Source of the DNA: Candidatus Parcubacteria bacterium
Lineage (GTDB): Bacteria; Patescibacteriota; Minisyncoccia; Minisyncoccales; JAGMDC01
DNA length: 64,000 nucleotides
Reading direction: 5' to 3'
NCBI GenBank assembly: GCA_023130975.1
Contig: JAGMAD010000003.1
Location: 65,109 to 129,108, forward strand
Position numbers and translations under genes: made by a program. Numbering within the stretch: the stretch's first letter is position 1; every line of letters starts with the position of its first letter. The notes beneath the pieces are model-generated. The model saw only the letters and a list, made by a program, of their open reading frames with translations. It made no database searches and was not told the origin of the DNA. Below are positions 6,165 to 60,654 of the stretch, piece after piece.

Positions 6165-6183
6165 ATTATTTTATGTATAACAG

Positions 6184-6580
6184 TGGAAGTGAGGGCATCG
6201 AAGCCCTGTCCAGAAATTTTGCCAAAATATTTCTACAAATTTAGTCCATTTTATTTTTTCGGAATACTGAATAAAAAATGAACAAAATTTCAATATTCTT
6301 AGTTCCTATTTTTAAACAATCATCTGGAACAATATGATTGTCTGTCTCGATAATATGGCACCTTCTTTGTCTATCGAGAATTAATAAAGAAGATGGCATT
6401 ACGATTAAACGTAAGCAGGAGCTAAACTGGCTATACCTCCGCCAAAGGCATTGGTAAGAGCCGTTTTAGCTTTAGAAAATAAGCCATTGACACTTATTTT
6501 TTTTCTCAAAGTTTTGCGAGATTTGAGAAAACTCGACTTGCATACTTTAACTCAAATTTCTGTCGAGACCTGACACTCCC
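6184..6580 (-). ncRNA. ssrA: tmRNA (SsrA)
   Basis: On the minus strand, 5' GGGAGUG pairs with 3' CACUUCC (G3:U wobble) followed by discriminator A. T-arm is AGGGC-UUCGAUG-GCCCU. The 5' region GGGAGUGUCAGGUCUCGACAG parallels the canonical GGGGCUGAUUCUGGAUUCGACGG. An internal open frame ends ..GIASLAPAYV-UAA (TAA at 6407-6405). The gene is adjacent to smpB. The CCA is not fully encoded. Confidence 0.85.
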
Positions 6581-6583
6581 GTC

Positions 6584-7033
6584 TTAGGTTTTTTCTTTAA
6601 TAATTCTTTCTTTTTCTATTTCAAATTCTCTTTTTTTTATTTTTTCTCTTTTATCAATTTTCTTTTTGCCTTTTGCTAATCCAAATAATAATTTTATATT
6701 TCCTCTCTTAGTATACATCTTTAAGGGTATTAAAGTCAAGCCCTTTTGCTTTGATTTGCCGATTAAAGATTTAATTTCTGTTTTTCTCAAAAGTAATTTT
6801 CTGGAGCGTTCTGGACTATAATCAGATGGCGCGTTTTTTGGCTGATATGGCGGAATATTTGCGCCGATTAAAAATAATTCCTGATTTTTTATTACAACAT
6901 AGGAACCTTTCAAACCAATATGGCCAGTTTTAATCGCTTTTACTTCTTGTCCAATCAAAACAATCCCTGCTTCATAGGTTTCTAAAATTTCATAATCAAA
7001 ATATGCTTTTTTATTTTGCGCCAAAACTTTCAT
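6584..7033 (-). CDS. smpB: SsrA-binding protein SmpB
   Basis: MKVLAQNKKAYFDYEI..EAGIVL.G.EVK matches canonical SmpB N-termini. The longer ORF to 7069 adds 12 aa that run into an upstream inverted repeat. Confidence 0.9.
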   Translation of the reverse strand: MKVLAQNKKAYFDYEILETYEAGIVLIGQEVKAIKTGHIGLKGSYVVIKNQELFLIGANIPPYQPKNAPSDYSPERSRKLLLRKTEIKSLIGKSKQKGLTLIPLKMYTKRGNIKLLFGLAKGKKKIDKREKIKKREFEIEKERIIKEKT

Positions 7034-7046
7034 CAATTTCAGTTTA

Positions 7047-7117
7047 CCCCCACACCATAACAAAGACAAGAGGTTCTACAATTGATTGATAAGATTATTC
7101 TTTGTTTGGTGTGGGGG
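7047..7117. repeat. 19/20-bp inverted repeat upstream of smpB
   Basis: CCCCCACACCATAACAAAGA (7047-7066) and TCTTTGTTTGGTGTGGGGG (7099-7117), with one single-nt indel and a 32-nt spacer. Confidence 0.8.
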
Positions 7118-9254: not shown

Positions 9255-12200
9255 ATGGACACAAATTTCCCTAACTTAGAAAAAAAGATTATAAAATTTT
9301 GGAAAGAGAACAGAATTTTTGAAAGATCAATTGAGCGACGCGAAAAAGCGCCTAATTTTGTTTTTTACGAAGGACCACCCTTTGCTAATGGCAAACCCGG
9401 TATTCATCATCTTTTGGCGCGGGCATTTAAGGATATGACTCTACGTTATAAAACAATGAGGGGTTATAAAGTAAAAAGGAAAGCTGGATGGGATACTCAT
9501 GGTTTACCGACTGAAATAGCCGCAGAAAAGGCATTAAAAATCAAAACGAAAAAAGACATAGAAAAAATTGGCATAGAGAAATTTATTAAGGAGTGTAGAA
9601 AAAATATCTTTACTTACAAAAAAGAATGGGAAAATTTCACTGAACGCATTGGTTTCTGGCTTGACATGGAAAATGCTTATATTACCTGTAGTAATAATTA
9701 TATTGAGTCGTTGTGGTGGATATTAAAACAGGTTTGGCAGAAAGGGCTTTTGTATCAGGATTATAAAGTGGTTCCTTATTGTCCGAGATGCGGAACATCG
9801 TTATCGTCCCACGAAGTAGCCCAGGGATACAAGAAAGTCAAAGAAAATTCAATTTATGTAAAGTTTCCTGTCAAAGGACAGAAGAATACTTATTTCTTGG
9901 TATGGACAACAACTCCTTGGACATTGCCAGGGAATGTGGCAATCGCAGTAAATTTGAAACCTACCTATGTCAAATTAAAGCTTAATAATGAATATCTGAT
10001 TTTAGCTAAACAGAGAATTAAGGATTGTGGAATAGAGGGAAAAATCACGAAAGAGTTTAAGAGAAAAGATTTGGTTGGATTGGAATATCAGCCCTTATAT
10101 AAAATTAAAATTAAGAAAGTCGGATTTCCTAAGGAAGTCCGACTTTCCGATGCTTATAAAATAATCCCTGCGGATTTTGTTTCCTTAGAAGAAGGAACAG
10201 GTTTAGTTCATATTGCACCTGCTTTTGGTGAAGATGATATGAATGTTAGTAAAGAAAATAATCTTCCTGTTTTAATAACAGTAGATGAACAAGGTAAAAT
10301 GAAAGCACCAAGTTATAAATGGAATAAGCTGTTTGTGAAAAATGCTGATCCGTTGATTATTGAAAATTTAAAAAAGAGAAAGCTGCTTTTCAAGGAAGAA
10401 TCGTATGAGCATGATTATCCTTTTTGCTGGAGATGTAAAACTCCTTTGATTTATTATGCTAAGAAGGCCTGGTTTATTGAGATGACCAAAATTAAAAAAG
10501 ATTTACTCAAAAATAACGAAAAGATAAACTGGGTTCCTAAACATTTAAAACAAGGCAGGTTCGGCGAATGGTTAAGGGAATTAAAAGATTGGGCTGTTTC
10601 CAGGGAAAGATATTGGGGCACACCCTTGCCTATCTGGAAATGTGAAAAATGCAGCCATCAGGAATTCATTGGTTCAAAAGAAGATATATTGAATCAAAAA
10701 TTTACTACTAATAAGTATTTTATTTTACGACATGGTGAATCAGAGTGTTCTAAAAAAGAAATAGGTGTTTCCAGCCCAGGAAAAGATTTATGTCCGTTGA
10801 CCAAAAAAGGAATGGCGCAAGTCCAGAAAGCCGCGCAGGAGTTAAAAAAAGAAAAAATAGATATTATTTTTTCTTCTGATTTATTGCGGACAAAACAAAC
10901 AGCGGAAATTGTTGGCAGAGCATTAGGTGTAAAAATAAAATACGACAAGCGGTTAAGGGAAATAAATTTTGGGATTTATGACAATAAATCGTTGAAACAA
11001 TGGAGGGGATTTTGGTTGGAAAGAAGCAATAGATTGAGAAAAAGACCTCCTTTAGGGGGAGAAAATTATACAAACGCAAAGAAAAGGATGTATAAATGTT
11101 TAAAAGATATTGATGAAAAATACAAAAGAAAAAAAATTTTAATAGTCAGCCATGGCGGCCCGATTTTAATGCTGTCGAGCGTAGTGAAAGGATTGTCCGA
11201 TGAAGAGATTACAAAACTCTTAAAAAGAGAACGAAAATTATTTCCAGTAGGGAAATGGCATAAAATAGATTTCAGGATTCTGCCTTACAATAAGCAGGGA
11301 GAATTGGATTTCCATAAGCCATATATTGATGAAGTAAAATTTAAATGTTCCAAGTGTGATAATTCAATGAAGCGAGTTTCAGAAGTGATTGATTGCTGGT
11401 TTGATTCTGGCGCAATGCCGTTTGCCCAATATCATTACCCTTTTGAAAACAAGAATCTAATTAACCCTTCGACAAGCTCAGGGCAAGTAAATCAATTTCC
11501 AGCAGATTTTATTTGCGAAGGAGTAGACCAAACTAGAGGTTGGTTTTACACTTTACTGGCTATTTCTACTTTGCTGGATTTGAGTCCGTCTTATAAAAAT
11601 GTCATTTCTTTGGGTCATGTTTTGGACGAAAAAGGGGAGAAAATGTCTAAATCAAAAGGAAATGTAGTTGATCCCTGGTATGTTATTGAAAAATATAGTT
11701 CAGATGCTGCTCGTTGGTATTTTTACACTATAAATCAGCCAGGTGATTCAAAACTTTTTACAGAGAAAGATGTAGATAATGCATTAAAGAAGTTTATTTT
11801 AACTTTTTGGAATATACATACTTTTTTTGAAACTTATGTTCCCAAAAAAGAATCTTTCAAATTTCAAGTTTTAAGTTCTAAGAATTTATTAGATAGATGG
11901 ATAATTTCTAAATTAAACAACTTGATTTTAGGAGTTTCTAAGAAATTGGATAATTATGATATTACTTCAGCTGCCAGAGATATAGAAGATTTTGTTATTA
12001 ATGATTTATCTCTATGGTATGTGAGGAGGTCCAGAAAAAGGTTTCAGAACCCTAAAACAAAAAAAGATTTTCAAGAAGCATCTGAGACCCTAAATTTTAT
12101 TTTATTAACTTTGAGTAAAGTAACAGCACCGTTTATTCCTTTTTTGAGTGAGGAAATATATCAAAAAGTCAAAAGTCAAAAGTTAAAAGTTAACAGTCAA

Positions 12201-28858: not shown

Positions 28859-30253
28859 ATGGAGAATTTAATGGAAAAGATAGTGAGTCTTTGCAAAAGG
28901 CGGGGCTTTATTTTCCCTAGTTCTGAAATCTATGGCGGTTTTTCAAGTTGTTATGATTTCGGACCATTAGGGGTTGAGATGAAGAGAAACATTAAAAGGA
29001 TTTGGTGGGACGAAATGACAAAACTTCATGATAATATTACGGGATTAGACGCTGGTGTTTTAATGTCGTCAAAAGTTTGGCAAGCATCTGGCCATTTAGC
29101 TGCTGGGTTTGCTGATGAATTAGTTGAATGTAAGGAATGCCATAAGCGGTTTAAATTAGACGAAATCCGCCAGCCGGCGGAAAAATGTCCAGAGTGTGAT
29201 GGTGTATTAACCAAGCCAAGAAAATTTAATCTAATGATGAAAACATTTGTGGGGCCGGTTGAAAATGAAAGTTCTCTGACTTATTTAAGGCCGGAAACTT
29301 GCCAGGGGATTTATGTTAATTTTCTTAATGCAGCCAATTCTATGCGGATGAAAATTCCTTTTGGCATTGCCCAGATTGGTAAGGCATTTAGAAACGAAAT
29401 TACGCCTGGCAATTATATTTTTCGGATTCGGGAGTTTGAACAAATGGAAATGCAGTTTTTTGTTAATTCTTTAATTAACAAAAAACCGCGAAAGAAACGC
29501 GAAACTAAACGCGAAAGAAACGCGAAAAATTGGACTCCAGATGATTGGTTTGATTATTGGAAAGAAGAACGCTTGAAATGGTATTTGGACTTAGGGATAG
29601 AAAAAGACAATTTGAGAGCCGTAGAGATTCCTGAGAAAGAAAGGGCTCATTATGCTAAGAGACAAATAGATCTTGAATATCATTTTCCATTCGGATGGAA
29701 AGAAATTGAAGGAGTTCACAATCGAGGCGATTTTGATTTATCTAATCATTCAAAACATAGTGGTCAAGATTTATTATATTTTGACGAAGAGTCAAACAAA
29801 AAATACATTCCTCATATTATTGAAACATCGGTAGGGGTAGAGCGTATTTTATTAGCTTTTCTTTGTGAGTCATATACTGAAATAAAAGGAGGGAGGACAA
29901 AGACGACAAAGGCAGTAAAAGAAGTTGAATCAGTTTTGAAATTAGATAAAAGATTGACTCCAGTTAAAGTAGCAGTTTTGCCATTGGTTCGCAATAAGCC
30001 AAGGATAGTTAAAAAGGCAAAAGAAGTTTATCAATTATTAAAACCTCATTTTACTTGCCAATACGATGAACTTGGGTCAATTGGCCGCCGCTATCGCCGT
30101 CAGGACGAGACAGGGACATTTCTATGTTTAACCATAGATTTTGAAAGTTTAGAAAATGATGATTTAACTATCCGCAACCGCGACACTATGAAGCAAGAAA
30201 GAGTAAAAATAGAGGAACTTGTTGAAATAATAAAAAAGAAAATAAATGTATAA
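28859..30253 (+). CDS. glyQS: Glycine--tRNA ligase (alpha2 class II type)
   Basis: RRGFIFPSSEIYGG, LRPETCQG, FRNEITP and IETSVGVERI blocks. ATG 28871 (preceded by GGAG) is an alternative start. Confidence 0.93.
   Translation: MENLMEKIVSLCKRRGFIFPSSEIYGGFSSCYDFGPLGVEMKRNIKRIWWDEMTKLHDNITGLDAGVLMSSKVWQASGHLAAGFADELVECKECHKRFKLDEIRQPAEKCPECDGVLTKPRKFNLMMKTFVGPVENESSLTYLRPETCQGIYVNFLNAANSMRMKIPFGIAQIGKAFRNEITPGNYIFRIREFEQMEMQFFVNSLINKKPRKKRETKRERNAKNWTPDDWFDYWKEERLKWYLDLGIEKDNLRAVEIPEKERAHYAKRQIDLEYHFPFGWKEIEGVHNRGDFDLSNHSKHSGQDLLYFDEESNKKYIPHIIETSVGVERILLAFLCESYTEIKGGRTKTTKAVKEVESVLKLDKRLTPVKVAVLPLVRNKPRIVKKAKEVYQLLKPHFTCQYDELGSIGRRYRRQDETGTFLCLTIDFESLENDDLTIRNRDTMKQERVKIEELVEIIKKKINV
29166..29181. 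repeat. TCCGCCAGCYGGCGGA palindrome, copy in glyQS
   Basis: AAATCCGCCAGCCGGCGGAAAAA, read as I R Q P A E K. Confidence 0.75.
29487..29530 (+). repeat. In-frame (ACGCGAAA-like)x4 repeat in glyQS
   Basis: CGCGAAAGAAACGCGAAACTAAACGCGAAAGAAACGCGAAAAAT, encoding RKKRETKRERNAKN. Resembles the intergenic GCGAAAA repeats at 57529-57549. Confidence 0.8.
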
Positions 30254-33588: not shown

Positions 33589-33611
33589 AAAAGGAGGTGA
33601 AACCTCCTTTT
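33589..33611 (+). promoter_or_regulatory. Perfect 10-bp hairpin occluding the GGAGG upstream of the LAGLIDADG ORF
   Basis: AAAAGGAGGT-GAA-ACCTCCTTTT ends 6 nt before ATG 33618. Confidence 0.6.
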
Positions 33612-33617
33612 AAAATT

Positions 33618-34622
33618 ATGTCTTGTGTTCCAGTTTCTATTTCAAAAAATGAATTAAAGGATTTATATGAAAAGAAAAAATTAACTACATATGAAATAGC
33701 TGATATTTATTATTGCTGTCAGGGAACTATCTGGAAAAGACTAGAACAATATGGAATTAAACGTCTTCCTAATGGCAGAAGATCCTTTGTTATTTCTAAA
33801 TCTAAACTGAAAAACCTCTATATCAAACAACGACTTTCTAGTAGGAAGATAGCAAAAATATATGGATGTGCTTATTCGACTATAGATTACAAAATAAGAG
33901 AGTATGGGTTTCCAGTAAAAACTCTTGCAGTAGCACATATTACTACACTGCGCAAAAATTTCGATGAAAATAAAACAAATAAAGCTTATCTGATTGGTTT
34001 TGCAATGGGGGATTTGAGAGTAAGGAAGAAATATCCAAATAGTGAAACCATAAACGTTGATTGTGCATCTACTAAAGAAGAACAAATTAATCTTATTTCA
34101 GGATTATTTAAACCCTATGGGAGAGTTTGGGTTAGTAAACCAAATAAGAAAGGAGCCACTCAAATCGAATGTTCTTTAAATGATTCCTTCAATTTTTTAT
34201 TAAAAAAGCGAATTTTAATTGACCTTTGGATTATAAAAAATAAAAAATATTTTTCGGCATTTCTTGCAGGATTTACTGATGCTGAAGGATGTATTTCTAT
34301 TACTAATAAAGAGTTAGCTTTTTATTCTTTGGGGAATTACAATAGTCAGCTTTTATCACAGATTCGAAACCAACTTCTAGAAATTGGGATAGAAAGTCCC
34401 AAACTAACTGAGGGAAAAACCAAAGGATATGTTGGAAGGGAAGGATATGCGAACAATCAAAACTATTGGTCGCTGCGTCTTAACAGAAAAATTCATTTAT
34501 TAAAACTTTTTGATTTAATTGATCCTTATTTAAAACATCCTACAAGAATTAAGGGTATTAAAAGAGCAAAGCAAAATATTAAATTGCGAAATATAAAATT
34601 TGGTAATCTTAAAATGAATTAA
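33618..34622 (+). mobile_element. Free-standing LAGLIDADG homing endonuclease with two N-terminal HTH modules
   Basis: Two LAGLIDADG-type motifs (LIGFAMGDLRV, FLAGFTDAEGCISI). Duplicated N-terminal module L(K)xLYxKxxL(S/T)xxxIAxIY.C...TI...(L/I).(Q/E)YG. No intein junction residues. The ORF also opens at GTG 33597. Confidence 0.8.
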
Positions 34623-34633
34623 TTTTGATTATT

Positions 34634-36055
34634 ATGAAAAAATCTTTCTTTATTTCTACGGCTATTGATTATCCTACCGAACAGGGGCATCTTGGCCATG
34701 CTTTAGAAAAAGTGCAAGCAGATGTTATTGCGAGATATAAAAGACTTCAAGGTATTGATGTCCATTTTAGCGCAGGAACAGACGAGCATGGGCTTAAAAT
34801 TCAAAGACGTGCTCAAAAAGCAGACAAAAAACCGCAAGAATTTGTGGATGAAATGAGTAAATATTTTAAAAATCTATGGAAAATATTAAACATCTCAAAT
34901 AATGATTTTATTAGGACTACCGAGAAAAGACATATAAAAGTTGTTCAAGAAATTATTAAGAAAATTTACAAGAAAGGTGATATTTATAAAGGAAAATATA
35001 AAGGATTATATTGTGTAGATTGCGAGAGTTATTATTTACCAAAAGATTTAGAAAATGGAAAATGTCCAATTCACAAGAAACCAGTAGAGTTGATAGAAGA
35101 AGAGACATATTTTTTTAGAATGAGTAAATACCAAAAACAACTTCAAGATTATATTAAAAAAAATAAAAATTTTATTATTCCTGTAGGTAAAAGAAACGAA
35201 ATCTTAAACCGGCTAAAAGAGCCCTTACAGGATTTAAGTATTTCTAGAAAAACAGTTCTATGGGGAATTCCATTACCTTTTGATAAAAAACTTTCTCTTT
35301 TTGTTTGGGTAGATGCTTTATGTAATTATCTAACTACGATTGGTTATCCCAATAATAAATCTAAAAAATTTTGGCCTGCTGATGTCCATATTATAGGAAA
35401 AGATATCGTTTGGCATCACACCGTAATTTGGAGCAGTTTATTATCGTCTTTAAAATTGCCTTTGCCAAAAACTATATTTGTTCACGGTTTTATCACATCT
35501 GGCGGTCAAAAAATGTCAAAAAGTTTGGGCAATGTGGTTGACCCATTTGTGTTAGTTGAAAAATACGGGACTGATGCTGTTAGGTATTTTCTTTTGCGAG
35601 AAATTCCGCCAACTGAAGATGGTGACTTTACCTATCAGAAGTTTGAGCAAAGATACAACTCAGACCTTGCGGCTGGAATTGGTAATTTGGTGGCAAGAGT
35701 AATAACGCTTGCGAAAAATTCCAAATTCCAAATTCCAAATTCCAAACAAATTCCAAATTCAAAATTCCAAACAGCAGTAAATAAAACATGGGGAAATTAT
35801 GAAAAAGCGTTGGACAATTTTAAATTTAACGAAGCCCTGAGAGAAATTTGGAAATTAATTAGCTTTTGCGACCGCTATATTGAAAAAGAGAGACCTTGGG
35901 AAAAGTCCAAGCATCAAGAACAAACAATCAAGAATCTATTATTTGCCTTAAGAAATATAGCTGAAATGTTAGAGCCGTTTTTGCCAGAAACATCAGAGAA
36001 TATATTAAAACAGATTAAAACAAAAAAAAGCAAACCACTTTTCCCTAGAATTTAA
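34634..36055 (+). CDS. metG: Methionine--tRNA ligase (short form)
   Basis: AIDYPTEQGHLGH (HIGH region), KMSKSLGN, and zinc knuckle CVDCESYY..CPIHKK. The ORF also opens at TTG 34625. Confidence 0.93.
   Translation: MKKSFFISTAIDYPTEQGHLGHALEKVQADVIARYKRLQGIDVHFSAGTDEHGLKIQRRAQKADKKPQEFVDEMSKYFKNLWKILNISNNDFIRTTEKRHIKVVQEIIKKIYKKGDIYKGKYKGLYCVDCESYYLPKDLENGKCPIHKKPVELIEEETYFFRMSKYQKQLQDYIKKNKNFIIPVGKRNEILNRLKEPLQDLSISRKTVLWGIPLPFDKKLSLFVWVDALCNYLTTIGYPNNKSKKFWPADVHIIGKDIVWHHTVIWSSLLSSLKLPLPKTIFVHGFITSGGQKMSKSLGNVVDPFVLVEKYGTDAVRYFLLREIPPTEDGDFTYQKFEQRYNSDLAAGIGNLVARVITLAKNSKFQIPNSKQIPNSKFQTAVNKTWGNYEKALDNFKFNEALREIWKLISFCDRYIEKERPWEKSKHQEQTIKNLLFALRNIAEMLEPFLPETSENILKQIKTKKSKPLFPRI
35711..35772 (+). 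repeat. In-frame AAATTCC oligo-repeat in metG
   Basis: GCGAAAAATTCCAAATTCCAAATTCCAAATTCCAAACAAATTCCAAATTCAAAATTCCAAAC, encoding AKNSKFQIPNSKQIPNSKFQ. Confidence 0.85.
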
Positions 36056-36058
36056 TTT

Positions 36059-36904
36059 ATGTTGTTTGATACTCACGCTCATCTTAATTTTGCTGTTTTT
36101 GACAAGGATAGGAAAGAAATGATTAAAAAATGCTTGGAAAATAATGTTTGGATGATAAATATAGGAACAAATTATGAGACCTCAAAAAAAGCAGTTGAAA
36201 TTGCGGGAAAATATAATGAAGGGGTTTATGCGGCAATTGGACTTCATCCCATAAATTTAGAGACAAATCTGATGAAACAAAAGTTTGATGAGAATGAAGG
36301 CGGCCGGTTTGAAAAAGAATTTAATTATGGAAAGTACAAAAAGCTTGCCTTAAGTTCTAAAAAGATTGTTGCTATTGGTGAAATCGGCTTGGATTATTGG
36401 CGAAAACCCAAGACAAAGAAAAAACTAGCAGAATTTAAAAATAAACAAAAAAATTTACTTTTACAAGAAATTAAATTAGCGCAGGAATTAGAATTGCCCA
36501 TAATCTTTCACTGCCGAATGGCTCACGACGACCTGATAAAAATATTACAATACAAAGAAGTCGGACTTCCTAAAGGAAGTCCGACTTCTAAAAAAGCCGT
36601 AATTCATTGCTTTACTGGAACTTGGGAGCAGTCAGAAAAATTTTTAGAAATGGGATTTTATTTGGGTTTTAATGGGATTGTTTTTAAATTAGACCTTGAT
36701 GAAATAATTAAGAAAACACCCCTGAATAGGATTTTAATAGAAACAGATTGCCCTTTTTTAACTCCCCCAAATTTCAATGAAGAAAAAAATAATCCTTTAG
36801 GTGTAAAATTCGTTGCTGAACATATTGCTAAAATTAGAAATCTCCCTCTTGAAAAAATAGCTGAAATTACCAGCACAAACGCTAAAACACTTTTTAAGAT
36901 TTAA
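36059..36904 (+). CDS. tatD: TatD family metal-dependent hydrolase
   Basis: MLFDTHAHLNF, GEIGLDY, IFHCR, HCFTG and ETDCPFL blocks. Confidence 0.9.
   Translation: MLFDTHAHLNFAVFDKDRKEMIKKCLENNVWMINIGTNYETSKKAVEIAGKYNEGVYAAIGLHPINLETNLMKQKFDENEGGRFEKEFNYGKYKKLALSSKKIVAIGEIGLDYWRKPKTKKKLAEFKNKQKNLLLQEIKLAQELELPIIFHCRMAHDDLIKILQYKEVGLPKGSPTSKKAVIHCFTGTWEQSEKFLEMGFYLGFNGIVFKLDLDEIIKKTPLNRILIETDCPFLTPPNFNEEKNNPLGVKFVAEHIAKIRNLPLEKIAEITSTNAKTLFKI
36556..36589. repeat. GAAGTCGGAYTTCC hairpin family, copy in tatD (in frame)
   Basis: AGAAGTCGGACTTCC-TAAA-GGAAGTCCGACTTCT with perfect 15-bp arms, encoding EVGLPKGSPTS. Confidence 0.9.
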
Positions 36905-39625: not shown

Positions 39626-41440
39626 ATGTGCGGTATAGTCGGCTACATTGGTAAAAAAGATAATCCTCAAATTGGCCTGAGTGCCTTGAAACGTTTGGAA
39701 TATAGGGGATATGATTCTGCTGGAATGGCTGTTTTTAATCCTGAAAAACAGGAGATTTTTTGCTTAAAGGCAAAAGGCAAAATCAGTGAACTTGAGAGAA
39801 AGTTTTATTCAGCACCTTTTAGTGGTAGTCCATTTATTTTTCATACTCGCTGGGCAACGCATGGCGAGGCAAGTGAAATAAATGCGCATCCACATTGGGA
39901 CTGCCAAAAAAACATTTTTTTGGTTCATAATGGAATAATTGAAAACTATCAGGAATTAAAAGAAAAGTTAGAAAAAGAAGGTCACAAGTTTCAGTCAGAA
40001 ACAGATACGGAAGTTCTCTGTCATTTAATTGAGAAGTATTTTCAGGGCAATCTTGAGGAAGCAGTGAGACAGGCATTAAAAGAAGTTAGAGGCACTTATG
40101 GAATTGCTGTTATCTCTAAAAAGGACCCTCAAAAGATTGTGGCAGCAAAGTTGGGTTCGCCTCTAATTTTAGGAATAAATCAGGACGAGTTTTTGATAGC
40201 TTCTGACCCTGCGGCTATTGTTTCTCATACCAGACAGGTCATTACTTTGGATGATAATGAAATCGCTGTTTTGTCCCCAAATAATTTTTTTATATTAAAA
40301 GAAAAGCCAATTGAAAAAATTGAATGGGATGCAGGAGAAGCACAGAAGCAGGGATTTTCCCATTTTATGTTAAAAGAAATAATGGAGCAACCGGAAAGCA
40401 TTGAGACACCTTTAAGAGGAAGATTAATAATTGATCAAGGGTTGGCAAAATTAGGAGGTTTAGAACCAGTAAAAGAGAGATTAAAGGGAATTGAGCGATT
40501 AAATATTGTTGCTTGCGGAACAGCTCGTCACGCTTGTTTGGTAGGCGAGTATATGCTGGAGGAATATACTGGAATTCCAGTAGAAGTAGAGGCTAGCTCG
40601 GAATTTAGGTATAGAAAACAAATTTTAGATAAAAAGACAGCAGTTTTGGCTGTTTCTCAATCAGGAGAGACAGCAGATACCTTGGAAGCAATCAAAGAAG
40701 CCAAAGAAAAAGGAATAATGTGTCTCGGGGTTGTCAATGTGGTAGGTTCAACCATTTCCAGGGAGACAGACGCAGGAATTTATAATCATGCTGGTCCAGA
40801 AATAGGGGTTGCCTCAACTAAAGCATTTACTTCTCAACTTACAGTTCTTGCTCTTTTAACCTTGTTTTTAGGCAGGCAGAGAGAAATGAGTTTAGTGATG
40901 GGTCAGAGGATTGCTAAAGAACTTTTACGTATTCCTGAATTGATGAGAGAAGTGCTGAAAAGCGAAGCCCAAGTAAAAGAATTAGCCCAAAAATATAAAG
41001 ATTTTAATAATCTGATGTATATTGGTCGGAAGTATAATTACCCTATCGCCCGGGAAGGAGCACATAAAATTAAGGAAATCGCTTATGTTCATGCTGAGGG
41101 AATGCGTGCGGGAGAACTTAAACATTGTGAACTTGCTTTGATTGATGAAAATTTTCCCACAATAGCTATCTGTCCTTCTGACTCGGTTTATGATAAAATG
41201 AAAAATGCAATGGAGGAAATTAAGGCAAGGCAGGGAAAGATTTTAGCTGTGGCTACTGAGGGAAACAATGAAATAAAAAATTTAGTTGATGATGTTATTT
41301 ATATTCCAAAAACTTTAGAAATGTTAACTCCAATTTTATCAGTAGTTCCATTACAACTTTTTGCTTATTATGTGGGAGTTCTACGGGGTTATGATGTAGA
41401 TCATCCAAAAAATTTAGCAAAGGCGGTCACGGTAGAGTAA
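39626..41440 (+). CDS. glmS: Glutamine--fructose-6-phosphate aminotransferase
   Basis: MCGIVGYIG Ntn-Cys start, two SIS domains and a C-terminal ..LAKAVTVE. Confidence 0.95.
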   Translation: MCGIVGYIGKKDNPQIGLSALKRLEYRGYDSAGMAVFNPEKQEIFCLKAKGKISELERKFYSAPFSGSPFIFHTRWATHGEASEINAHPHWDCQKNIFLVHNGIIENYQELKEKLEKEGHKFQSETDTEVLCHLIEKYFQGNLEEAVRQALKEVRGTYGIAVISKKDPQKIVAAKLGSPLILGINQDEFLIASDPAAIVSHTRQVITLDDNEIAVLSPNNFFILKEKPIEKIEWDAGEAQKQGFSHFMLKEIMEQPESIETPLRGRLIIDQGLAKLGGLEPVKERLKGIERLNIVACGTARHACLVGEYMLEEYTGIPVEVEASSEFRYRKQILDKKTAVLAVSQSGETADTLEAIKEAKEKGIMCLGVVNVVGSTISRETDAGIYNHAGPEIGVASTKAFTSQLTVLALLTLFLGRQREMSLVMGQRIAKELLRIPELMREVLKSEAQVKELAQKYKDFNNLMYIGRKYNYPIAREGAHKIKEIAYVHAEGMRAGELKHCELALIDENFPTIAICPSDSVYDKMKNAMEEIKARQGKILAVATEGNNEIKNLVDDVIYIPKTLEMLTPILSVVPLQLFAYYVGVLRGYDVDHPKNLAKAVTVE

Positions 41441-41535
41441 TCCAATCATATCAACATTCAAACATACCAACATTTTAACAAAATTTAAATTCAAAATGTT
41501 AAAATGTTTAGATGTTAAAATGTTAGAATAAATTT
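41441..41535. repeat. Intergenic imperfect inverted repeat built from CAACAT / ATGTTA oligo-repeats
   Basis: The left arm ..TCAACATTCAAACATACCAACATTTTAAC and right arm GTTAAAATGTTTAGATGTTAAAATGTTAG are approximately complementary. Confidence 0.7.
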
Positions 41536-42081
41536 ATGACCAATCTTTTTAAAGACATTCCAGCTGGCGACAATTCGCCAGAAGAAATTAATGTAGTGGT
41601 GGATATTCCTAAAGGTTGCGCTAATAAGTATGAATACGACGAGGAAAAGGAATGTTTTAAATTAGACAGGGTGAATTATTCACCAATGTTTTATCCTTGT
41701 GATTACGGTTTTATTCCACAGACCCATTCAGAGGATGGCGATGCATTAGATGTTCTTCTTCTAACTACTTATCCTACTTTTTCGGGTTGTGTTGTTAAAG
41801 CCAGACCAATTGGAATGATTTTAATGAAAGACGAGGCAGGGAATGATGATAAAATTGTTGCTGTTCCAGTAGAAAAAGTTGATCCACGATTTAAGGAGAT
41901 TCAAGATATAGATGATGTACCCGAACATCTTAGAAAAGAAATAAAAATTTATTTAGAGGATTATAAAAAATTAGAACCGGAAAAATATGAGCACGTGAAG
42001 GTAGGAAAATTTCAAGGAAAAGAAAAAGCCTTAGAGATTATTAAAAAAGCAATTGAGGCGTATAAGACAAATAATAAATAG
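41536..42081 (+). CDS. ppa: Inorganic pyrophosphatase (family I)
   Basis: VVVDIPKG..NKYEYD, YPCDYGFIPQT and DGDALDVL blocks. Confidence 0.93.
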   Translation: MTNLFKDIPAGDNSPEEINVVVDIPKGCANKYEYDEEKECFKLDRVNYSPMFYPCDYGFIPQTHSEDGDALDVLLLTTYPTFSGCVVKARPIGMILMKDEAGNDDKIVAVPVEKVDPRFKEIQDIDDVPEHLRKEIKIYLEDYKKLEPEKYEHVKVGKFQGKEKALEIIKKAIEAYKTNNK

Positions 42082-43785
42082 ATGTTTGAAAATATTTTAG
42101 AAAAAGAAAACAAAAAAGTTTTCCTTTTAGGAAACGAGGCAATAGTAAGAGGCGCTTTGGAAGCAGGCGTCCAGTTTGTTTCTACTTATCCCGGGACACC
42201 GGCTTCAGAAATAGGGAATAGCTTTTATGAAATTCAAAATTCAAATCCGCCAGCTGGCGGAAAAATTAAAAGCTTTTATTTTGAATTTTCTGTGAATGAA
42301 AAAGTGGCGATAGAAGCAGCAGGAGGTGCTTCTTTTTCTGGTTTACGTTCTTTGGTAGCTATGAAAAATTTTGGTTTGAATGTTGCTTCTGATTTTTTAC
42401 TTCCTCTGGTTTATTCCGGTGTTAAAGGAGGAATGGTCATCCTGTCAGCAGATGATCCTTCCTGTCATAGTTCAGCTCAGTCCGAAGAGAATACTCGGGC
42501 TTTTGCTTCTTTAGCGCATATTCCTATTCTTGAGCCATCAACACCGCAGGAATGTAAGGACTTTGTAAAATTTGCTTTTGATTTGTCTGAAAAATTCCAA
42601 ATTCCAGTAATGATTCGGGAAACCACCCGAGTAGCCCACCAAAGCGCTCCAGTAAAATTATCTAATATCCAATATCTAAAATCTAATATCCAGTTTATTA
42701 AAGACCATAAGAAGTTTGTGACAATGCCGCCAAGAGTTTTGGAAATGCACCAAGAGCTGTTGGAGAAGATTGAAAAAATCAGAGATTTTTCCGAGATAAG
42801 TAAATTAAATTCAATATTTAGAAGTCGGACTTCCGCTGGAAGTCCGACTTCTCGTAAATTAGGTATTATTACTTCAGGTGTGTCTTATCTCTATGTAATG
42901 GAAGCTTTAAAAGAATTAAATTTAGATATCCCGGTTTTGAAATTGGGCTTTTTTTATCCTTTACCAGAAGAAAAAATTAAGAAGTTTATTAATCCGCCAA
43001 CTGGCGCATTAAAAAAAGTCCTGATAGTAGAAGAATTAGAACCCTATTTAGAAAATGAAGTAATGAGATTAGCAAAAGAAGTTAACTGTAAATTAAAAAT
43101 CGTGGGCAAGGAGTTAATCCCAGAAGTTGGTGAATTAAAACCAGAAATTGTAACTTCGGCTATCGCCAAATTCACAAATAAAAAACATCCAACATTAAAC
43201 ATCCAACATCCAACATCTATTCCAAAACGTCATCCACAGCTTTGCCCTGGTTGTCCTTATTGGTTTGTTTTTAACGGTGTAAAGAAAGCCACTAAAGATA
43301 TGGATATTATTTTCGGCGGTGATATTGGCTGTTATATGTTAGCCGGATTTTCTCCTCATAATATTCAGGATTATCTTTATTGTATGGGTTCTTCAATTGG
43401 TATCGCCCATGGAATTAAGAAAGCTGCTCCGCCGGATGGCGGACAAAAACTTATTACTTTTATTGGTGATTCAACTTTTTTTCATTCTGGCATTCCAGCT
43501 TTAATTAATACTGTTTTTAACAAGTCAAATCCATTAATAATTATTATGAATAATTCCACTACTGCTATGACTGGCCATCAACCTCATCCGTCTGCACCAG
43601 CTGAACCTGACGGAATAGAGATTGAAAGTATTGTTAAGGCCTGTGGGGTCAAGAATTTAAGAACGATTGACCCAGCCAAGCAGGAAGAATTTGTAAAAAC
43701 AATCAAGGAGTTTTTAAAGAAAGATGAAGTTTCAGTAATCATTGCTCGCCATCCCTGCATATTTGTGAAAAAACAAAAAGGTTAA
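42082..43785 (+). CDS. iorA: Indolepyruvate:ferredoxin oxidoreductase alpha subunit (no C-terminal ferredoxin domain visible)
   Basis: LLGNEAIVRGALEAGVQFVSTYPGTPASEI and the TPP region CPGCPYW..GDIGCY..GDSTFFHSG. Confidence 0.85.
   Translation: MFENILEKENKKVFLLGNEAIVRGALEAGVQFVSTYPGTPASEIGNSFYEIQNSNPPAGGKIKSFYFEFSVNEKVAIEAAGGASFSGLRSLVAMKNFGLNVASDFLLPLVYSGVKGGMVILSADDPSCHSSAQSEENTRAFASLAHIPILEPSTPQECKDFVKFAFDLSEKFQIPVMIRETTRVAHQSAPVKLSNIQYLKSNIQFIKDHKKFVTMPPRVLEMHQELLEKIEKIRDFSEISKLNSIFRSRTSAGSPTSRKLGIITSGVSYLYVMEALKELNLDIPVLKLGFFYPLPEEKIKKFINPPTGALKKVLIVEELEPYLENEVMRLAKEVNCKLKIVGKELIPEVGELKPEIVTSAIAKFTNKKHPTLNIQHPTSIPKRHPQLCPGCPYWFVFNGVKKATKDMDIIFGGDIGCYMLAGFSPHNIQDYLYCMGSSIGIAHGIKKAAPPDGGQKLITFIGDSTFFHSGIPALINTVFNKSNPLIIIMNNSTTAMTGHQPHPSAPAEPDGIEIESIVKACGVKNLRTIDPAKQEEFVKTIKEFLKKDEVSVIIARHPCIFVKKQKG
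42246..42261. repeat. TCCGCCAGCTGGCGGA palindrome, copy in iorA
   Basis: AAATCCGCCAGCTGGCGGAAAAA, read as N P P A G G K. Degenerate relatives lie at 42991-43006 and 43428-43445. Confidence 0.8.
42661..42692 (+). repeat. In-frame TCTAATATCC oligo-repeat in iorA
   Basis: TCTAATATCCAATATCTAAAATCTAATATCCA, encoding SNIQYLKSNIQ. Confidence 0.75.
42820..42852. repeat. GAAGTCGGAYTTCC hairpin family, copy in iorA (in frame, shifted register)
   Basis: AGAAGTCGGACTTCC-GCT-GGAAGTCCGACTTCT with perfect 15-bp arms, encoding RSRTSAGSPTS. Confidence 0.9.
43185..43218 (+). repeat. In-frame CATCCAA/CAACAT oligo-repeat in iorA
   Basis: ACATCCAACATTAAACATCCAACATCCAACATCT, encoding HPTLNIQHPTS. Related to the CAACAT repeats in the 41447-41475 intergenic region. 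Confidence 0.8.
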
Positions 43786-43793
43786 AATTTTAG

Positions 43794-43826
43794 GGAAGTC
43801 GGATTTCCAAAGGAAATCTGACTTCC
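43794..43826. repeat. GAAGTCGGAYTTCC hairpin family, intergenic copy (iorA-iorB spacer)
   Basis: GGAAGTCGGATTTCC-AAA-GGAAATCTGACTTCC, with one G-T pair. Confidence 0.85.
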
Positions 43827-49530: not shown

Positions 49531-49534
49531 AATG

Positions 49535-49660
49535 AACTACCCCGCCCTAAAGGGCGAGGTATCCCTGCCTGCCTGCCGGCAGGCAGGCCTTCAGGCGAGT
49601 TCTTTCAGCGGCTTTCATTTCCGCCGCAAGCGGCGGGATATTGCTGCCGCCGAAATAAAC
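49535..49660. repeat. GC-rich cluster of three or more palindromes (REP/BIME-like) between the CcdA-like gene and sufC
   Basis: CCCCGCCC-TAAA-GGGCGAGG, CCTGCCTGCC|GGCAGGCAGG, and TCCGCCGC-AA-GCGGCGGGA with an alternative partner GCTGCCGCCG. There is a strong local GC contrast. Confidence 0.8.
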
Positions 49661-49666
49661 TATATT

Positions 49667-50383
49667 ATGCTTTTAGAAATTAAAAATTTAAAAGTAGGCG
49701 TAAAAGGAAAAGAGATATTGAAATACATTAATTTAAATATAAAAAAGGGGGAGATACAAGCTCTTCTTGGTCCCAATGCCAGTGGGAAATCCACCCTTGC
49801 CCAAGTTATTTTGGGCAATCCAAAATATAAAATTACTGAAGGCAGTATTTTTTTTAATAAAAAAAATATTACCAAACTTTCTCCAGACAAACGAGTTAAA
49901 CTAGGAATTGCTTTGAGTTGGCAAAATCCACCAGTCATAAAAGGAGTCAAACTATCTCAATTATTAAAAGAAATTTCAATGTTTAGAGGTTCGGCCTCTA
50001 AACATTTTAACTATGAGAAACAACTATTAGAGAGAGAGGTAAATGTAGATTTTTCCGGCGGAGAGAAAAAAATGTCAGAATTATTACAGGTTTTAACCCT
50101 TGAACCTAAACTGGTAATTTTTGATGAGATTGATTCTGGTTTGGATTTAAAACGGCTGGGAGAAGTATCAGAGATAATAAAAAAAGAACTGCTCGCTAAA
50201 AAAGTTTCAATTTTATTAATTACTCACTCTGGAGAGATTTTAAAATTCTTAAAACCGAATATTACTAATGTAATGGTCGCTGGAAAAATTATTTGTAAAG
50301 AAAAAGATTATAAAAAGGTTTTAAAAACCATTAAAAAATATGGCTATGAAAAATGTAAAAAATGTCGCAGACCGAGCATATAA
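49667..50383 (+). CDS. sufC: Fe-S cluster assembly ATPase SufC
   Basis: MLLEIKNLKV.., GPNASGKSTLAQVILGNPKY, FSGGEKKMSE and FDEIDSGLD. The 45 upstream in-frame codons (from 49532) lie in a GC-rich palindrome cluster and are unlikely to be coding. Confidence 0.88.
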   Translation: MLLEIKNLKVGVKGKEILKYINLNIKKGEIQALLGPNASGKSTLAQVILGNPKYKITEGSIFFNKKNITKLSPDKRVKLGIALSWQNPPVIKGVKLSQLLKEISMFRGSASKHFNYEKQLLEREVNVDFSGGEKKMSELLQVLTLEPKLVIFDEIDSGLDLKRLGEVSEIIKKELLAKKVSILLITHSGEILKFLKPNITNVMVAGKIICKEKDYKKVLKTIKKYGYEKCKKCRRPSI

Positions 50384-60183: not shown

Positions 60184-60654
60184 ATGATTGAGATTAATAA
60201 TTTGACAACTAATCCAGTAGATGAGGAATTTTTGAGAAAAAGTGCTAAAATAGTGTTAGATGGCGAATCCGCCAGCTGGCGGATGGCGGAGCGGAAAAAG
60301 GATGTTGATTTATCTATTGCTTTTGTAGGACAGGGAAGAATGAGAGAAATCAATAAAAGATACCGGGGCAAAAATCGCGTTACTGATGTTTTGAGTTTTC
60401 CAGAATCCAAGGTTTTATTACAAAAATTTAAAGTAGGTCCTTCTCAAAAAATTCAGGGCTTAGGGGAAATAATCATTTGTCTGCGTGAAGTTAAAAAGAA
60501 TGCTAAAAAATTTAGTTCTTCCTTTGAAAAAGAATTAAATAAGGTTTTAATTCATGGAATTCTACATTTGTTAGGATACGACCATGAGAAGGGCGAAGAG
60601 AAGGCAGAGGAGATGGAAGAAAAAGAAAAATATTATTTGTCAAAAGTTTTTTAG
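60184..60654 (+). CDS. ybeY: rRNA maturation endoribonuclease YbeY
   Basis: TDVLSFP and the zinc motif HGILHLLGYDHE. Confidence 0.92.
   Translation: MIEINNLTTNPVDEEFLRKSAKIVLDGESASWRMAERKKDVDLSIAFVGQGRMREINKRYRGKNRVTDVLSFPESKVLLQKFKVGPSQKIQGLGEIIICLREVKKNAKKFSSSFEKELNKVLIHGILHLLGYDHEKGEEKAEEMEEKEKYYLSKVF
60268..60283. repeat. TCCGCCAGCTGGCGGA palindrome, copy in ybeY
   Basis: GAATCCGCCAGCTGGCGGATGGCGGAGCGG, read as E S A S W R M A E R. Confidence 0.8.

What the first reader, a model, noticed from the sequence alone, without database searches (positions are those of the whole stretch)
42246..42261. The 16-nt palindrome TCCGCCAGCTGGCGGA is embedded in three genes in three different reading frames
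The copies are glyQS 29166-29181 (central C variant, read I-R-Q-P-A-E-K), iorA 42246-42261 (read N-P-P-A-G-G-K) and ybeY 60268-60283 (read E-S-A-S-W-R-M). The glyQS and iorA copies also share both flanks (AAA..AAAA). The element has no stop codon in any of its six frames. More degenerate relatives occur at 42991-43006 and 43428-43445 in iorA. Identical GC-rich 16-mers in an AT-rich genome are very unlikely to be coincidental. The core contains a PvuII-like CAGCTG. It could be a protein or recombinase recognition site, an uptake-signal-like motif, or a mini insertion element.
Basis: seen in the sequence. Interest (0 to 1): 0.65.

Follow-up and report, generated by a model that had tools for sequence, protein, structure and literature searches.

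The report
Tiny palindromic insert inside housekeeping genes
A 16-base GC-rich palindrome has been inserted, in frame, into variable loops of essential genes of an uncultured Parcubacteria (CPR) bacterium and its relatives; it looks like a very small version of the selfish palindromic repeats known from Rickettsia genes.

Summary
TCCGCCAGCTGGCGGA occurs exactly in iorA (42246) and ybeY (60268). It occurs with 1 mismatch in glyQS (29166) and with 2 mismatches twice more in iorA (42993, 43428). Shuffles predict 0.02 matches. The window comes from a Candidatus Parcubacteria MAG, 34% GC.

Every copy sits at an indel hot spot of a conserved protein. Close orthologues lack the segment (+12, +15 or +24 nt), and carriers are scattered across the gene trees. 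Wherever homologues carry the peptides PPAGG, SASWR or RQLAE, the codons are the palindrome itself, exact or 1-2 nt off. So the DNA is the conserved unit, not the peptide.

The same 16-mer turned up in at least 112 AT-rich metagenome contigs, in many unrelated genes and in spacers. No gene family recurs next to it.

A second palindrome family and other GC-rich hairpins also sit inside genes here. 6 of 17 indels of at least 4 aa against the nearest relative are exceptional hairpins.

Best reading: a non-autonomous palindromic repeat without stop codons, like Rickettsia palindromic elements but about ten times shorter. The spreading mechanism is unknown. A protein-recognition or uptake-signal role is not excluded. 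I found no report of this for CPR bacteria.

The parts
42246..42261 (.). Perfect 16-nt palindrome TCCGCCAGCTGGCGGA in iorA (site 1), read as N-PPAGG-K
   Evidence: exact match; net +12 nt (4 aa) against orthologues L010, L012 and P0121/2/4. L011/P0123 shares it with one synonymous change.
60268..60291 (.). 24-nt insert in ybeY: the perfect 16-mer (60268-60283), a duplicated right arm TGGCGGA, and G. Read as SASWRMAE.
   Evidence: absent from the closest orthologue L092/P0003 (GATGAA|GAGCGG); the insert at the same site in L090 is its reverse complement (21/23); it lies in the only segment of the YbeY model with pLDDT below 50.
29166..29181 (.). One-mismatch copy TCCGCCAGCCGGCGGA in glyQS, read as IRQPAE, in the variable spacer between the two Cys pairs
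   Evidence: shared by P0242 and P0257 only. Other homologues have shorter or unrelated sequence here. P0242 uses the identical codons.
42993..43008 (.). Decayed copy TCCGCCAACTGGCGCA in iorA (site 2), read as N-PPTGA-L
   Evidence: +12 nt against the majority state FIK-NLKK. The same site holds the exact 16-mer in L270, L139 and L144, and variants in L010, L018 and L271.
43428..43443 (.). Copy with intact arms and a changed centre, TCCGCCGGATGGCGGA, in iorA (site 3), read as A-PPDGG-Q
   Evidence: +12 nt against the base state KKATGQKL found in about 30 of 44 relatives. L010 and L271 carry the exact 16-mer here. Other lineages carry other GC-rich inserts at this site.
28859..30253 (+). Host gene glyQS (glycine-tRNA ligase)
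   Evidence: NF003211, E = 4e-177.
42082..43785 (+). Host gene iorA (indolepyruvate ferredoxin oxidoreductase alpha); holds three copies of the 16-mer family and one copy of the second family
   Evidence: TIGR03336, E = 2.5e-188.
60184..60654 (+). Host gene ybeY (rRNA maturation RNase)
   Evidence: TIGR00043, E = 2.8e-37.
42820..42852 (.). Context: second palindrome family, AGAAGTCGGACTTCC-GCT-GGAAGTCCGACTTCT, in iorA, read as RSRTSAGSPTS
   Evidence: DNA fold -17 kcal/mol, z = -8.7.: +18 nt against L010, which keeps only the right arm.
36556..36589 (.). Context: second-family copy inside the TatD-like gene
   Evidence: +18 nt against L010, which keeps only the left arm. One search gives the translation.
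10115..10147 (.). Context: second-family copy (3 mismatches) inside IleRS
43795..43825 (.). Context: second-family copy (3 mismatches) in the iorA/iorB spacer

Best explanation
The 16-mer is the core of a short, dispersed, non-autonomous palindromic DNA repeat. It spreads within, and probably between, genomes of a Nealsonbacteria-like clade of Parcubacteria.

New copies land in A-rich stretches. Inside genes, only copies that meet three conditions survive: they add a multiple of three bases, they carry no stop codon (the palindrome has none in its three distinct frames), and they fall in tolerant surface loops. Such copies are translated through as PPAGG, SASWR or RQLAE. Afterwards they decay by point mutation, lose an arm, duplicate an arm or invert.

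Shown here:
- It is a repeat family.
- The copies are insertions relative to orthologues.
- Identity is at the DNA level, not the peptide level.
- Occupancy of the same sites is patchy and recurrent.
- All three frames are used.
- No neighbouring gene is linked to it.
- Other palindrome families sit at the same hot spots.

Inferred:
- The spread is selfish.
- It runs through a hairpin (single-stranded DNA) intermediate handled by a protein encoded elsewhere, or through templated patch copying between A-rich microhomologies.
For: Enrichment:
- 5 copies against 0.02 expected in the window.
They held 112 hits in contigs below 46% GC, against my estimate of about 2 expected by composition.

Insertion status:
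- ybeY has +24 nt against L092, and +15 nt in other lineages, as GAA|TCCGCCAGCTGGCGG|AAA.
- iorA sites 1-3 each have +12 nt.
- The glyQS copy lies in a hypervariable loop.

The DNA is the unit:
- Eight peptide instances in six genes chosen by protein sequence (L268-L273) are all encoded by the exact palindrome or a version 1-2 nt off. These proteins are only 69-89% identical to the window's.

Patchiness:
- At least 6 state changes are needed for iorA site 2 and at least 7 for ybeY, on UPGMA trees of 120 homologues.

Frames and contexts:
- Copies in relatives lie inside long ORFs in all three phases.
- Metagenome hits lie in many unrelated housekeeping genes and in spacers.

No linked gene:
- Clustering of 1066 neighbouring ORFs found no recurrent family.
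- No transposase was seen in about 80 kb of the source genome.

Generality:
- A second palindrome family has 4 copies in the window.
- 6 of 17 indels of at least 4 aa against the nearest relative fold better than 99% of random windows.
- iorA site 3 and the ybeY site hold unrelated GC-rich inserts in other lineages.

Rearrangement:
- The ybeY insert is inverted between two genomes.
- One-arm remnants remain in L010.

Tolerance:
- The YbeY insert lies in the only low-confidence connector of the model.
Against: - Net insert length is not constant (+12, +15, +24; in glyQS about +6 or 0).
- No target-site duplication is visible, so this is not a clean cut-and-paste signature.
- No mobilising enzyme was found.
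- Only about 80 kb of the source genome could be read. It holds just 5 copies, all within 31 kb.
- The exact 16-mer recurs at the very same codon positions in lineages about 30% diverged in protein sequence. That needs strong target specificity, exchange of alleles by recombination, or selection on the DNA. The last would favour a functional site.
- Perfect copies (about 9) are as common as 1-mismatch copies (about 7) and 2-mismatch copies (about 6) in the sample not selected by DNA pattern. That is less decay than expected for old junk.
Confidence: 0.6

Rival explanations
1. The palindrome is the binding site of a dimeric DNA-binding protein. It is kept, or driven to spread, because of that binding. 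Candidates are a DNA-uptake signal acting through competence and recombination (molecular drive, as for USS/DUS), a diverged parS for ParB, or another chromosome-organising site. Copies sit in tolerant loops because only there can the motif coexist with protein function.
For: - It is a 16-bp perfect palindrome, the same size as parS.
- No consensus parS within 3 mismatches was found in the window or in 20 kb up to and including parB.
- parA and parB lie about 8 kb downstream of the ybeY copy.
- dprA is in the window.
- Exact nucleotide identity is kept at the same sites across diverged lineages.
- No transposase is linked to it.
- Some spacer copies cap long hairpins, much as paired uptake signals form terminators.
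- The patchy distribution fits allele exchange by recombination.
Against: - The sites arise as insertions, not substitutions.
- Several unrelated palindrome families occupy the same hot spots.
- Copies decay freely (42993, L010, L018).
- Three copies sit within 1.2 kb of one gene.
- There are more than 100 different contexts in metagenomes, with up to 3 copies per 6 kb. That is too many and too scattered for parS.
- Density is about 1 per 13-20 kb, roughly 15-fold lower than known uptake signals.
- Half-sites are not enriched: 18 against about 8 expected, and about 10 of the 18 come from the palindromes themselves.
- Only 6 of 16 positions match consensus parS.
Confidence: 0.2
2. The hairpins work at the RNA or DNA structure level inside genes. 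They could be ribosome pause sites at domain boundaries, mRNA-stabilising or processing hairpins, or replication or transcription punctuation. On this reading they are kept for the structure, not for the sequence.
For: - All five copies fold as a 6-bp GC stem with a 4-nt loop (z about -2.4 to -3).
- Two copies keep the arms while the loop differs (29166, 43428).
- One position in iorA (42820) carries a different hairpin in almost every lineage.
Against: - Most orthologues have no hairpin at the 16-mer sites. About 30 of 44 have none at iorA site 3.
- Selection on structure would allow compensatory stem changes. Instead the same 16-mer recurs in unrelated genes and genomes.
- Decayed copies break the stem (42993, L010 10885).
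- No Rfam family matches.
Confidence: 0.1
3. The palindromes are made locally by template switching or snap-back synthesis, which turns neighbouring sequence into an inverted duplicate. The similarity between copies would then be convergence or chance. Alternatively, they are assembly artefacts.
For: - L010 holds exactly one arm where the window holds a full second-family palindrome, at two sites.
- An arm is duplicated and the ybeY insert is inverted.
- The window encodes a PolX-type polymerase.
Against: - Local inverted duplication cannot give the same 16-mer in dozens of unrelated genes and genomes.
- Chance expectation is 0.02.
- Independent assemblies agree.
Confidence: 0.04

Closest known systems
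Rickettsia palindromic elements (RPEs)
   Same: Both are palindromic repeat families inserted in frame into unrelated housekeeping genes and translated through. Both come in several families per genome and appear compatible with protein fold (review PMC10969869, read; also PMC1779305).
   Different: RPEs are about 100-150 bp and add 30-50 residues. This core is 16 nt and adds 4-8 residues. The phylum differs (CPR against Alphaproteobacteria), and there is no sequence similarity. Here the same element recurs at the same codon position in diverged lineages.
Cyanobacterial small dispersed repeats (SDR, 21-27 nt; Elhai et al. 2008, from my own knowledge; mentioned in PMC3116915)
   Same: Both are very short palindromic repeats with no coding capacity that appear mobile. 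Both occur in coding and non-coding DNA, sometimes nested, by an unknown mechanism.
   Different: This core is even shorter and GC-rich in an AT-rich genome. It sits mainly in conserved genes and uses all three frames. I did not test for relatedness.
REP / REPIN elements with RAYT transposases
   Same: Both are short GC-rich hairpin repeats that are non-autonomous and presumably handled as single-stranded hairpins by a protein encoded elsewhere (PMC3116915, PMC3733652).
   Different: REPs are extragenic, 20-40 nt imperfect palindromes. They carry a GTAG or CGTC tag, are often paired as REPINs and sit next to a RAYT gene. Here 5 of 5 window copies are intragenic, there is no tag, no doublets and no RAYT was seen.
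GC clusters and byp elements of yeast mitochondria; palindromic repeats of Volvox organelles; coding palindromes of Nematomorpha mitochondria
   Same: All are GC-rich palindromic elements that invade AT-rich genomes, including protein-coding genes (PMC4478555, PMC2670323, PMC6649704).
   Different: Those are organellar and 30-280 bp long. Some are skipped by the ribosome rather than translated. Here the host is bacterial, the core is 16 nt, and the inserts stay in frame.
DNA uptake sequences (Haemophilus USS, Neisseria DUS)
   Same: Both are short motifs found inside genes at tolerant positions in several frames. In spacers both can appear as hairpins. Both spread without a linked gene (from my own knowledge).
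   Different: USS and DUS are asymmetric, about 1 per kb, and arise mainly by substitution. This motif is a palindrome at about 1 per 13-20 kb and arises with length change. Its half-sites are not enriched.
parS centromere sites
   Same: Both are 16-bp palindromes, often inside genes, with parAB nearby.
   Different: Only 6 of 16 bases match the consensus. Copies are too many and too scattered, the sites are insertions, and they decay.

Membership tests
Rickettsia palindromic elements (RPE) | Palindromic repeat inserted in frame in protein-coding genes and translated through | tested here: met
Rickettsia palindromic elements (RPE) | Length about 100-150 bp, encoding a conserved peptide of 30-50 aa | tested here: not met
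   The core is 16 nt and net inserts are 12-24 nt, giving 4-8 aa.
Rickettsia palindromic elements (RPE) | Sequence homology to RPE-1 to RPE-10, in the Rickettsia lineage | not tested
   No RPE sequences were compared. The host is a Parcubacteria MAG.
REP / REPIN-RAYT | Predominantly extragenic location | tested here: not met
   5 of 5 window copies, and all copies in relatives, lie inside long ORFs. About half of the metagenome hits lie in ORFs of at least 150 aa.
REP / REPIN-RAYT | GTAG or CGTC tetranucleotide tag at one end; imperfect palindrome of 20-40 nt | tested here: not met
   The sequence starts with TCCG and is a perfect 16-mer. The criterion comes from PMC3733652.
REP / REPIN-RAYT | RAYT (Y1 HUH transposase) gene in the genome, flanked by the repeat | not testable with these tools
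   None is present in the roughly 80 kb read. No family recurs next to the metagenome copies.
MITE | Terminal inverted repeats plus a target-site duplication of fixed length; 50-500 bp | tested here: not met
   No constant duplication was found, net length varies, and the core is 16 nt.
parS / ParB | Match to the consensus TGTTNCACGTGAAACA | tested here: not met
   6 of 16 positions are identical. No consensus parS within 3 mismatches exists anywhere in the window, L001 or L090.
parS / ParB | Few copies, clustered near oriC/parB, conserved in position | tested here: inconclusive
   5 copies lie within 31 kb and 8-39 kb from parAB. However, more than 100 scattered contexts appear in metagenomes, and occupancy is patchy.
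parS / ParB | Bound by ParB | not testable with these tools
   This needs EMSA or ChIP.
DNA uptake sequence (USS/DUS) | Very high density (about 1 per kb) of an asymmetric core, also as single copies | tested here: not met
   5 copies in about 80 kb. The half-site TCCGCCA occurs 18 times against 7.9 expected, and about 10 of those 18 lie inside the palindromes.
DNA uptake sequence (USS/DUS) | Biased uptake of DNA that carries the motif | not testable with these tools
   This needs an experiment. dprA is present.
HIP1-like highly iterated palindrome | Palindrome of about 8 nt at about 1 per kb, arising by substitution and linked to a methyltransferase site | tested here: not met
   Density is low and the sites arise by length change. 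CAGCTG is not enriched, 26 against 30. The criterion comes from PMC4390886.

The most novel reading that the evidence does not exclude
The 16-mer may be the recognition hairpin of an undiscovered trans-acting enzyme, or of an uptake or recombination system, that is conserved across a Parcubacteria clade. That would make it the smallest propagating DNA element described, at 15-16 nt.

On this reading it repeatedly targets the same loop-coding positions of essential genes (aminoacyl-tRNA synthetases, YbeY, IorA), shares those hot spots with several other palindrome families, and is a main source of protein-length variation in CPR genomes.
Probability: 0.25. Interest if true: 0.8.

Novelty: new variant of a known kind. 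Interest (0 to 1): 0.6.

Why it matters
- **New host group and size range.** If confirmed, in-frame selfish palindromes would be known in the Candidate Phyla Radiation as well as in Rickettsia and organelles. The element would be about ten times shorter than RPEs.
- **Alignments and trees.** It would explain a good share of the indels in universal marker proteins of these genomes. That matters for alignments, phylogenomics and structure prediction of CPR proteins.
- **Strain markers.** The presence or absence of copies gives natural markers for strain tracking.
- **Unknown activity.** It points to an unidentified hairpin-handling or sequence-specific activity in organisms with minimal DNA-repair gene sets.
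- **An open puzzle.** The same 16-mer recurs at identical codon positions in diverged lineages. That separates three testable ideas: targeting, recombinational spread, and selection on the DNA.

Tried and rejected
- **Consensus parS.** No match with up to 3 mismatches in the window, L001, L007, L010, L090 or L091. This neither supports nor removes the parS idea.
- **Half-site or uptake-signal enrichment.** None beyond the palindromes themselves.
- **Restriction-site logic.** CAGCTG is at its expected frequency.
- **Phage link.** There are 55 exact hits in IMG/VR, but most lie in GC-rich contigs, consistent with chance. The few AT-rich ones show no pattern.
- **Linked mobilising gene.** All-against-all clustering of 1066 ORFs within 2 kb of metagenome copies found only ordinary housekeeping families, each in at most 4 loci.
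- **Rfam.** The only hit in the window is tmRNA.
- **Solved structures.** The YbeY alignments start just after the insert, and the IorA homologues are too distant to place the loops. An AlphaFold model was used instead.
- **Exact insertion boundaries and target duplications.** These could not be defined, because the available empty-site orthologues differ from the window's proteins by about 10-30% and their flanking codons differ.
- **More of the source genome.** Extending it by 9.2 kb to the left and 6.7 kb to the right gave no further copies.
- **Tool failures.** One repeat finder failed on a parameter limit.
- **Literature.** Searches for a CPR or Patescibacteria report of such elements found nothing relevant.
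Full report
**1. The observation**

A search for TCCGCCAGCTGGCGGA with up to 3 mismatches finds five sites in the window:
- 29166 (1 mismatch)
- 42246 (exact)
- 42993 (2 mismatches)
- 43428 (2 mismatches)
- 60268 (exact)

Dinucleotide-preserving shuffles give 0.02 on average. The window is 34% GC, so a 75% GC 16-mer is very improbable by chance.

NCBIfam confirms the host genes as glyQS (28859-30253), iorA (42082-43785) and ybeY (60184-60654). The translations confirm the three readings IRQPAE, NPPAGG and SASWR.

Because the sequence is a perfect palindrome, it has only three distinct frames. None contains a stop codon.

The ybeY copy is an 18-nt perfect palindrome. It is followed by a second copy of the right arm, TGGCGGA.

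The window comes from a Candidatus Parcubacteria MAG (GCA_030629575.1, contig DAOVOQ010000001.1). The same sequence is present in independent ENA and Logan assemblies of several samples. An assembly artefact is therefore unlikely.

**2. The copies are insertions in conserved proteins**

*YbeY.* Among the 33 YbeY homologues aligned, the 8 residues SASWRMAE are absent from the closest ones (P0003, P0005-P0007, P0009; 86-91% identical). A scattered minority carries SASWR at the same place. At the DNA level the empty site of L092 reads GATGAA|GAGCGG, and the window has 24 extra bases there. In other lineages the insert is exactly 15 nt, as GAA|TCCGCCAGCTGGCGG|AAA.

*IorA.* All three copies lie at indel hot spots, and each adds a net 12 nt relative to the majority state.

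*GlyRS.* The copy lies in the hypervariable spacer between the two Cys pairs. Only two of the 25 aligned homologues share it, and other lineages hold long unrelated inserts there. Other GlyRS positions (about aa 59 and 290) carry the same palindrome in other lineages.

*Structure.* An AlphaFold model of YbeY (mean pLDDT 79.7) places the insert in the only segment with pLDDT below 50. That segment lies between helix 14-36 and strand 43-48. This fits a tolerated surface connector.

**3. The DNA is the conserved unit, not the peptide**

I picked six carrier genes by protein sequence only: YbeY P0113 and P0040, IorA P0196 and P0131, and GlyRS P0250 and P0242. I then fetched their DNA.

All eight peptide instances are encoded by the exact 16-mer or a version 1-2 nt away. 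These proteins are only 69-89% identical to the window's, and the flanking codons differ freely. PPAGG alone could be encoded in 1024 ways.

The peptides therefore exist because of the palindrome, and the refutation test fails.

**4. Distribution**

*In related genomes.* In 80 loci around iorA homologues from species-representative genomes, the motif (up to 2 mismatches) occurs only in the closest Nealsonbacteria- or Minisyncoccales-like relatives: L010, L011, L013, L019, L022 and L028. There it also occurs in genes other than iorA. In all but one case (L019 4356) these copies lie inside ORFs of at least 236 codons, and all three phases are used.

*Across gene trees.* Carriers are scattered on crude UPGMA trees of the 120 best homologues. 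At least 6 state changes are needed for iorA site 2 and at least 7 for ybeY.

Of the hits:
- 112 lie in contigs below 46% GC.
- 56 lie inside ORFs of at least 150 aa, in many unrelated housekeeping genes.
- 48 lie in short ORFs or spacers.

By composition I estimate about 2 chance hits even if the whole collection were AT-rich. This is my own arithmetic, not a tool result.

A few spacer copies cap long perfect hairpins (L122, L164, L166, L136). Some contigs hold 2-3 copies within a few kb.

*In the source genome.* The 9.2 kb to the left and 6.7 kb to the right of the window hold no further copy.

**5. It is one family among several**

A second palindrome, AGAAGTCGGACTTCC-N(1-3)-GGAAGTCCGACTTCT, occurs four times in the window: in IleRS, in TatD, in iorA and in the iorA/iorB spacer. 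At two of these sites the relative L010 keeps exactly one arm.

I made a systematic list of indels between window ORFs and their orthologues in the nearest relative (L010/L090, proteins about 85% identical). Of 17 indels of at least 4 aa, 6 fold better than 99% of random windows of the same length.

The ybeY site and iorA site 3 carry unrelated GC-rich inserts in other lineages, for example SFAKATEDK, PAFAKASAG and LRLVSGQAAA.

The 23-nt ybeY insert of the window is the reverse complement (21/23) of the insert at the same site in L090. Copies therefore also invert and duplicate arms.

**6. Mechanism**

The best-supported reading is a non-autonomous, probably selfish palindromic repeat. It is inserted imprecisely into A-rich DNA. 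In genes it survives only where three conditions hold: the net length is a multiple of three, the frame has no stop codon, and the loop tolerates 4-8 extra residues.

What is shown:
- It is a repeat family.
- The copies are insertions.
- Identity is at the DNA level.
- Occupancy is patchy and recurrent.
- All three frames are used.
- Copies decay, lose arms and invert.
- No gene is linked to them.
- No transposase was seen in about 80 kb.

What is inferred:
- The spread is selfish.
- It involves a hairpin intermediate and a trans-acting enzyme, or templated patch copying between A-rich microhomologies.

Points against a simple transposon:
- The insert length is variable and there is no target duplication.
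- The exact element recurs at the same codon positions in diverged lineages. That calls for target specificity, allele exchange by recombination, or selection on the DNA itself.

**7. Rivals**

*A protein-recognition site (uptake signal, diverged parS or other).* This is not excluded. It is weakened by the following:
- The sites originate as insertions.
- Other palindrome families occupy the same hot spots.
- Copies decay freely.
- Density is low.
- Half-sites are not enriched.
- Metagenome contexts are many and scattered.

No consensus parS was found near parAB, so the true parS of this lineage remains unknown.

*A structural RNA or DNA role.* This is unlikely, because most orthologues lack any hairpin at these sites. 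Selection on structure would also not hold the sequence constant across unrelated genes.

*Local template switching or chance.* Neither can produce the same 16-mer in dozens of genes and genomes.

*Phage origin.* This has no support.

*Rfam.* No family matches.

**8. Comparison with known systems**

The element works like Rickettsia palindromic elements, which are in-frame, translated and come in several families (PMC10969869; PMC1779305). It fails their size criterion by about tenfold, and I tested no homology.

It is not a REP/REPIN. The copies are intragenic, carry no GTAG/CGTC tag, form no doublets, and no RAYT was seen (PMC3116915; PMC3733652).

It is not a MITE, not HIP1-like (PMC4390886), and not a consensus parS.

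The nearest analogues in size are the 21-27-nt small dispersed repeats of cyanobacteria (from my own knowledge). The nearest in ecology, GC-rich palindromes in AT-rich genomes, are the organellar GC clusters and coding palindromes (PMC4478555, PMC2670323, PMC6649704).

Five literature searches found no description of such elements in CPR or Patescibacteria. The library does not cover subscription journals, so an earlier report cannot be ruled out.

**9. Verdict**

- It is a new variant of a known kind.
- Interest is moderate to high. The phenomenon appears general in these genomes and affects universal marker proteins. The recurrent same-site occupancy is unexplained.

Noticed in passing
window 10115-10147, 36556-36589, 42820-42852, 43795-43825: A second palindrome family of about 33 nt, AGAAGTCGGACTTCC-N(1-3)-GGAAGTCCGACTTCT. 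Three copies are in frame in IleRS, TatD and iorA, and one is in the iorA/iorB spacer. The relative L010 keeps only one arm at two of these sites.
   Followed up: partly
window 49544-49638: Three GC-rich hairpins (CGCCCTAAAGGGCG, the 22-nt perfect palindrome GCCTGCCTGCCGGCAGGCAGGC, and TCCGCCGCAAGCGGCGGG) lie just upstream of the likely true sufC start at 49669. The long ORF 49532-50383 probably over-extends the gene by about 45 codons.
   Followed up: partly
window 1275-1318 and 14970-15013: Two further long, near-perfect hairpins (20-21-nt arms) lie inside ORFs: a DUF72 protein and a large surface protein.
   Followed up: no
window 9255-12749: The isoleucyl-tRNA synthetase (1164 aa) carries a complete histidine-phosphatase (His_Phos_1) domain at aa 489-654, inside its catalytic domain.
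   Followed up: no
window 33597-34622: A free-standing ORF with LAGLIDADG homing-endonuclease domains lies directly upstream of MetRS (34625-36055). A small GIY-YIG ORF lies about 6 kb left of the window (L274 3414-3674).
   Followed up: no
window 60268-60290 versus L090 10085-10107: The 23-nt ybeY insert of the window is the reverse complement (21/23) of the insert at the same site in the nearest relative. The element was therefore either inverted in place or inserted twice in opposite orientations.
   Followed up: yes
window 41433-41536 and 43170-43230: There are AT-rich inverted and tandem repeats in the glmS/ppa spacer. A CATCCAACA-type tandem repeat inside iorA encodes HPTLNIQHPTSI; this stretch is also length-variable among homologues.
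   Followed up: no
homologues P0010, P0013, P0054, P0080, P0086 (YbeY); P0244, P0256 (GlyRS); L154 (CCA-adding enzyme): Other recurrent in-frame inserts occur in relatives. A 21-aa TPLEITGTEKKREESKSLTGF segment sits at a second YbeY site. Inserts of about 30 aa sit in the GlyRS Zn-loop. An IPLPGLPLNKGEVPTGGGGT segment occurs twice in one protein.
   Followed up: no
window 6181-6580 (- strand): A tmRNA gene (Rfam RF00023, 120.8 bits) lies next to smpB (6584-7069).
   Followed up: no
L090 11920-12647: The nearest relative has a HEPN/nucleotidyltransferase gene pair inserted between ftsA and ftsZ. The window lacks it.
   Followed up: no
window 42820 region, in the iorA codon alignment of L010-L030: At this one iorA position, almost every lineage carries a different short hairpin-forming sequence, for example GGAGGACAGTCCTCC, AGAGACCGGGTCTCT and GGACGAGGCCTGTCCTCGTCC. 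This suggests either an extreme insertion hot spot or selection for a hairpin there.
   Followed up: partly
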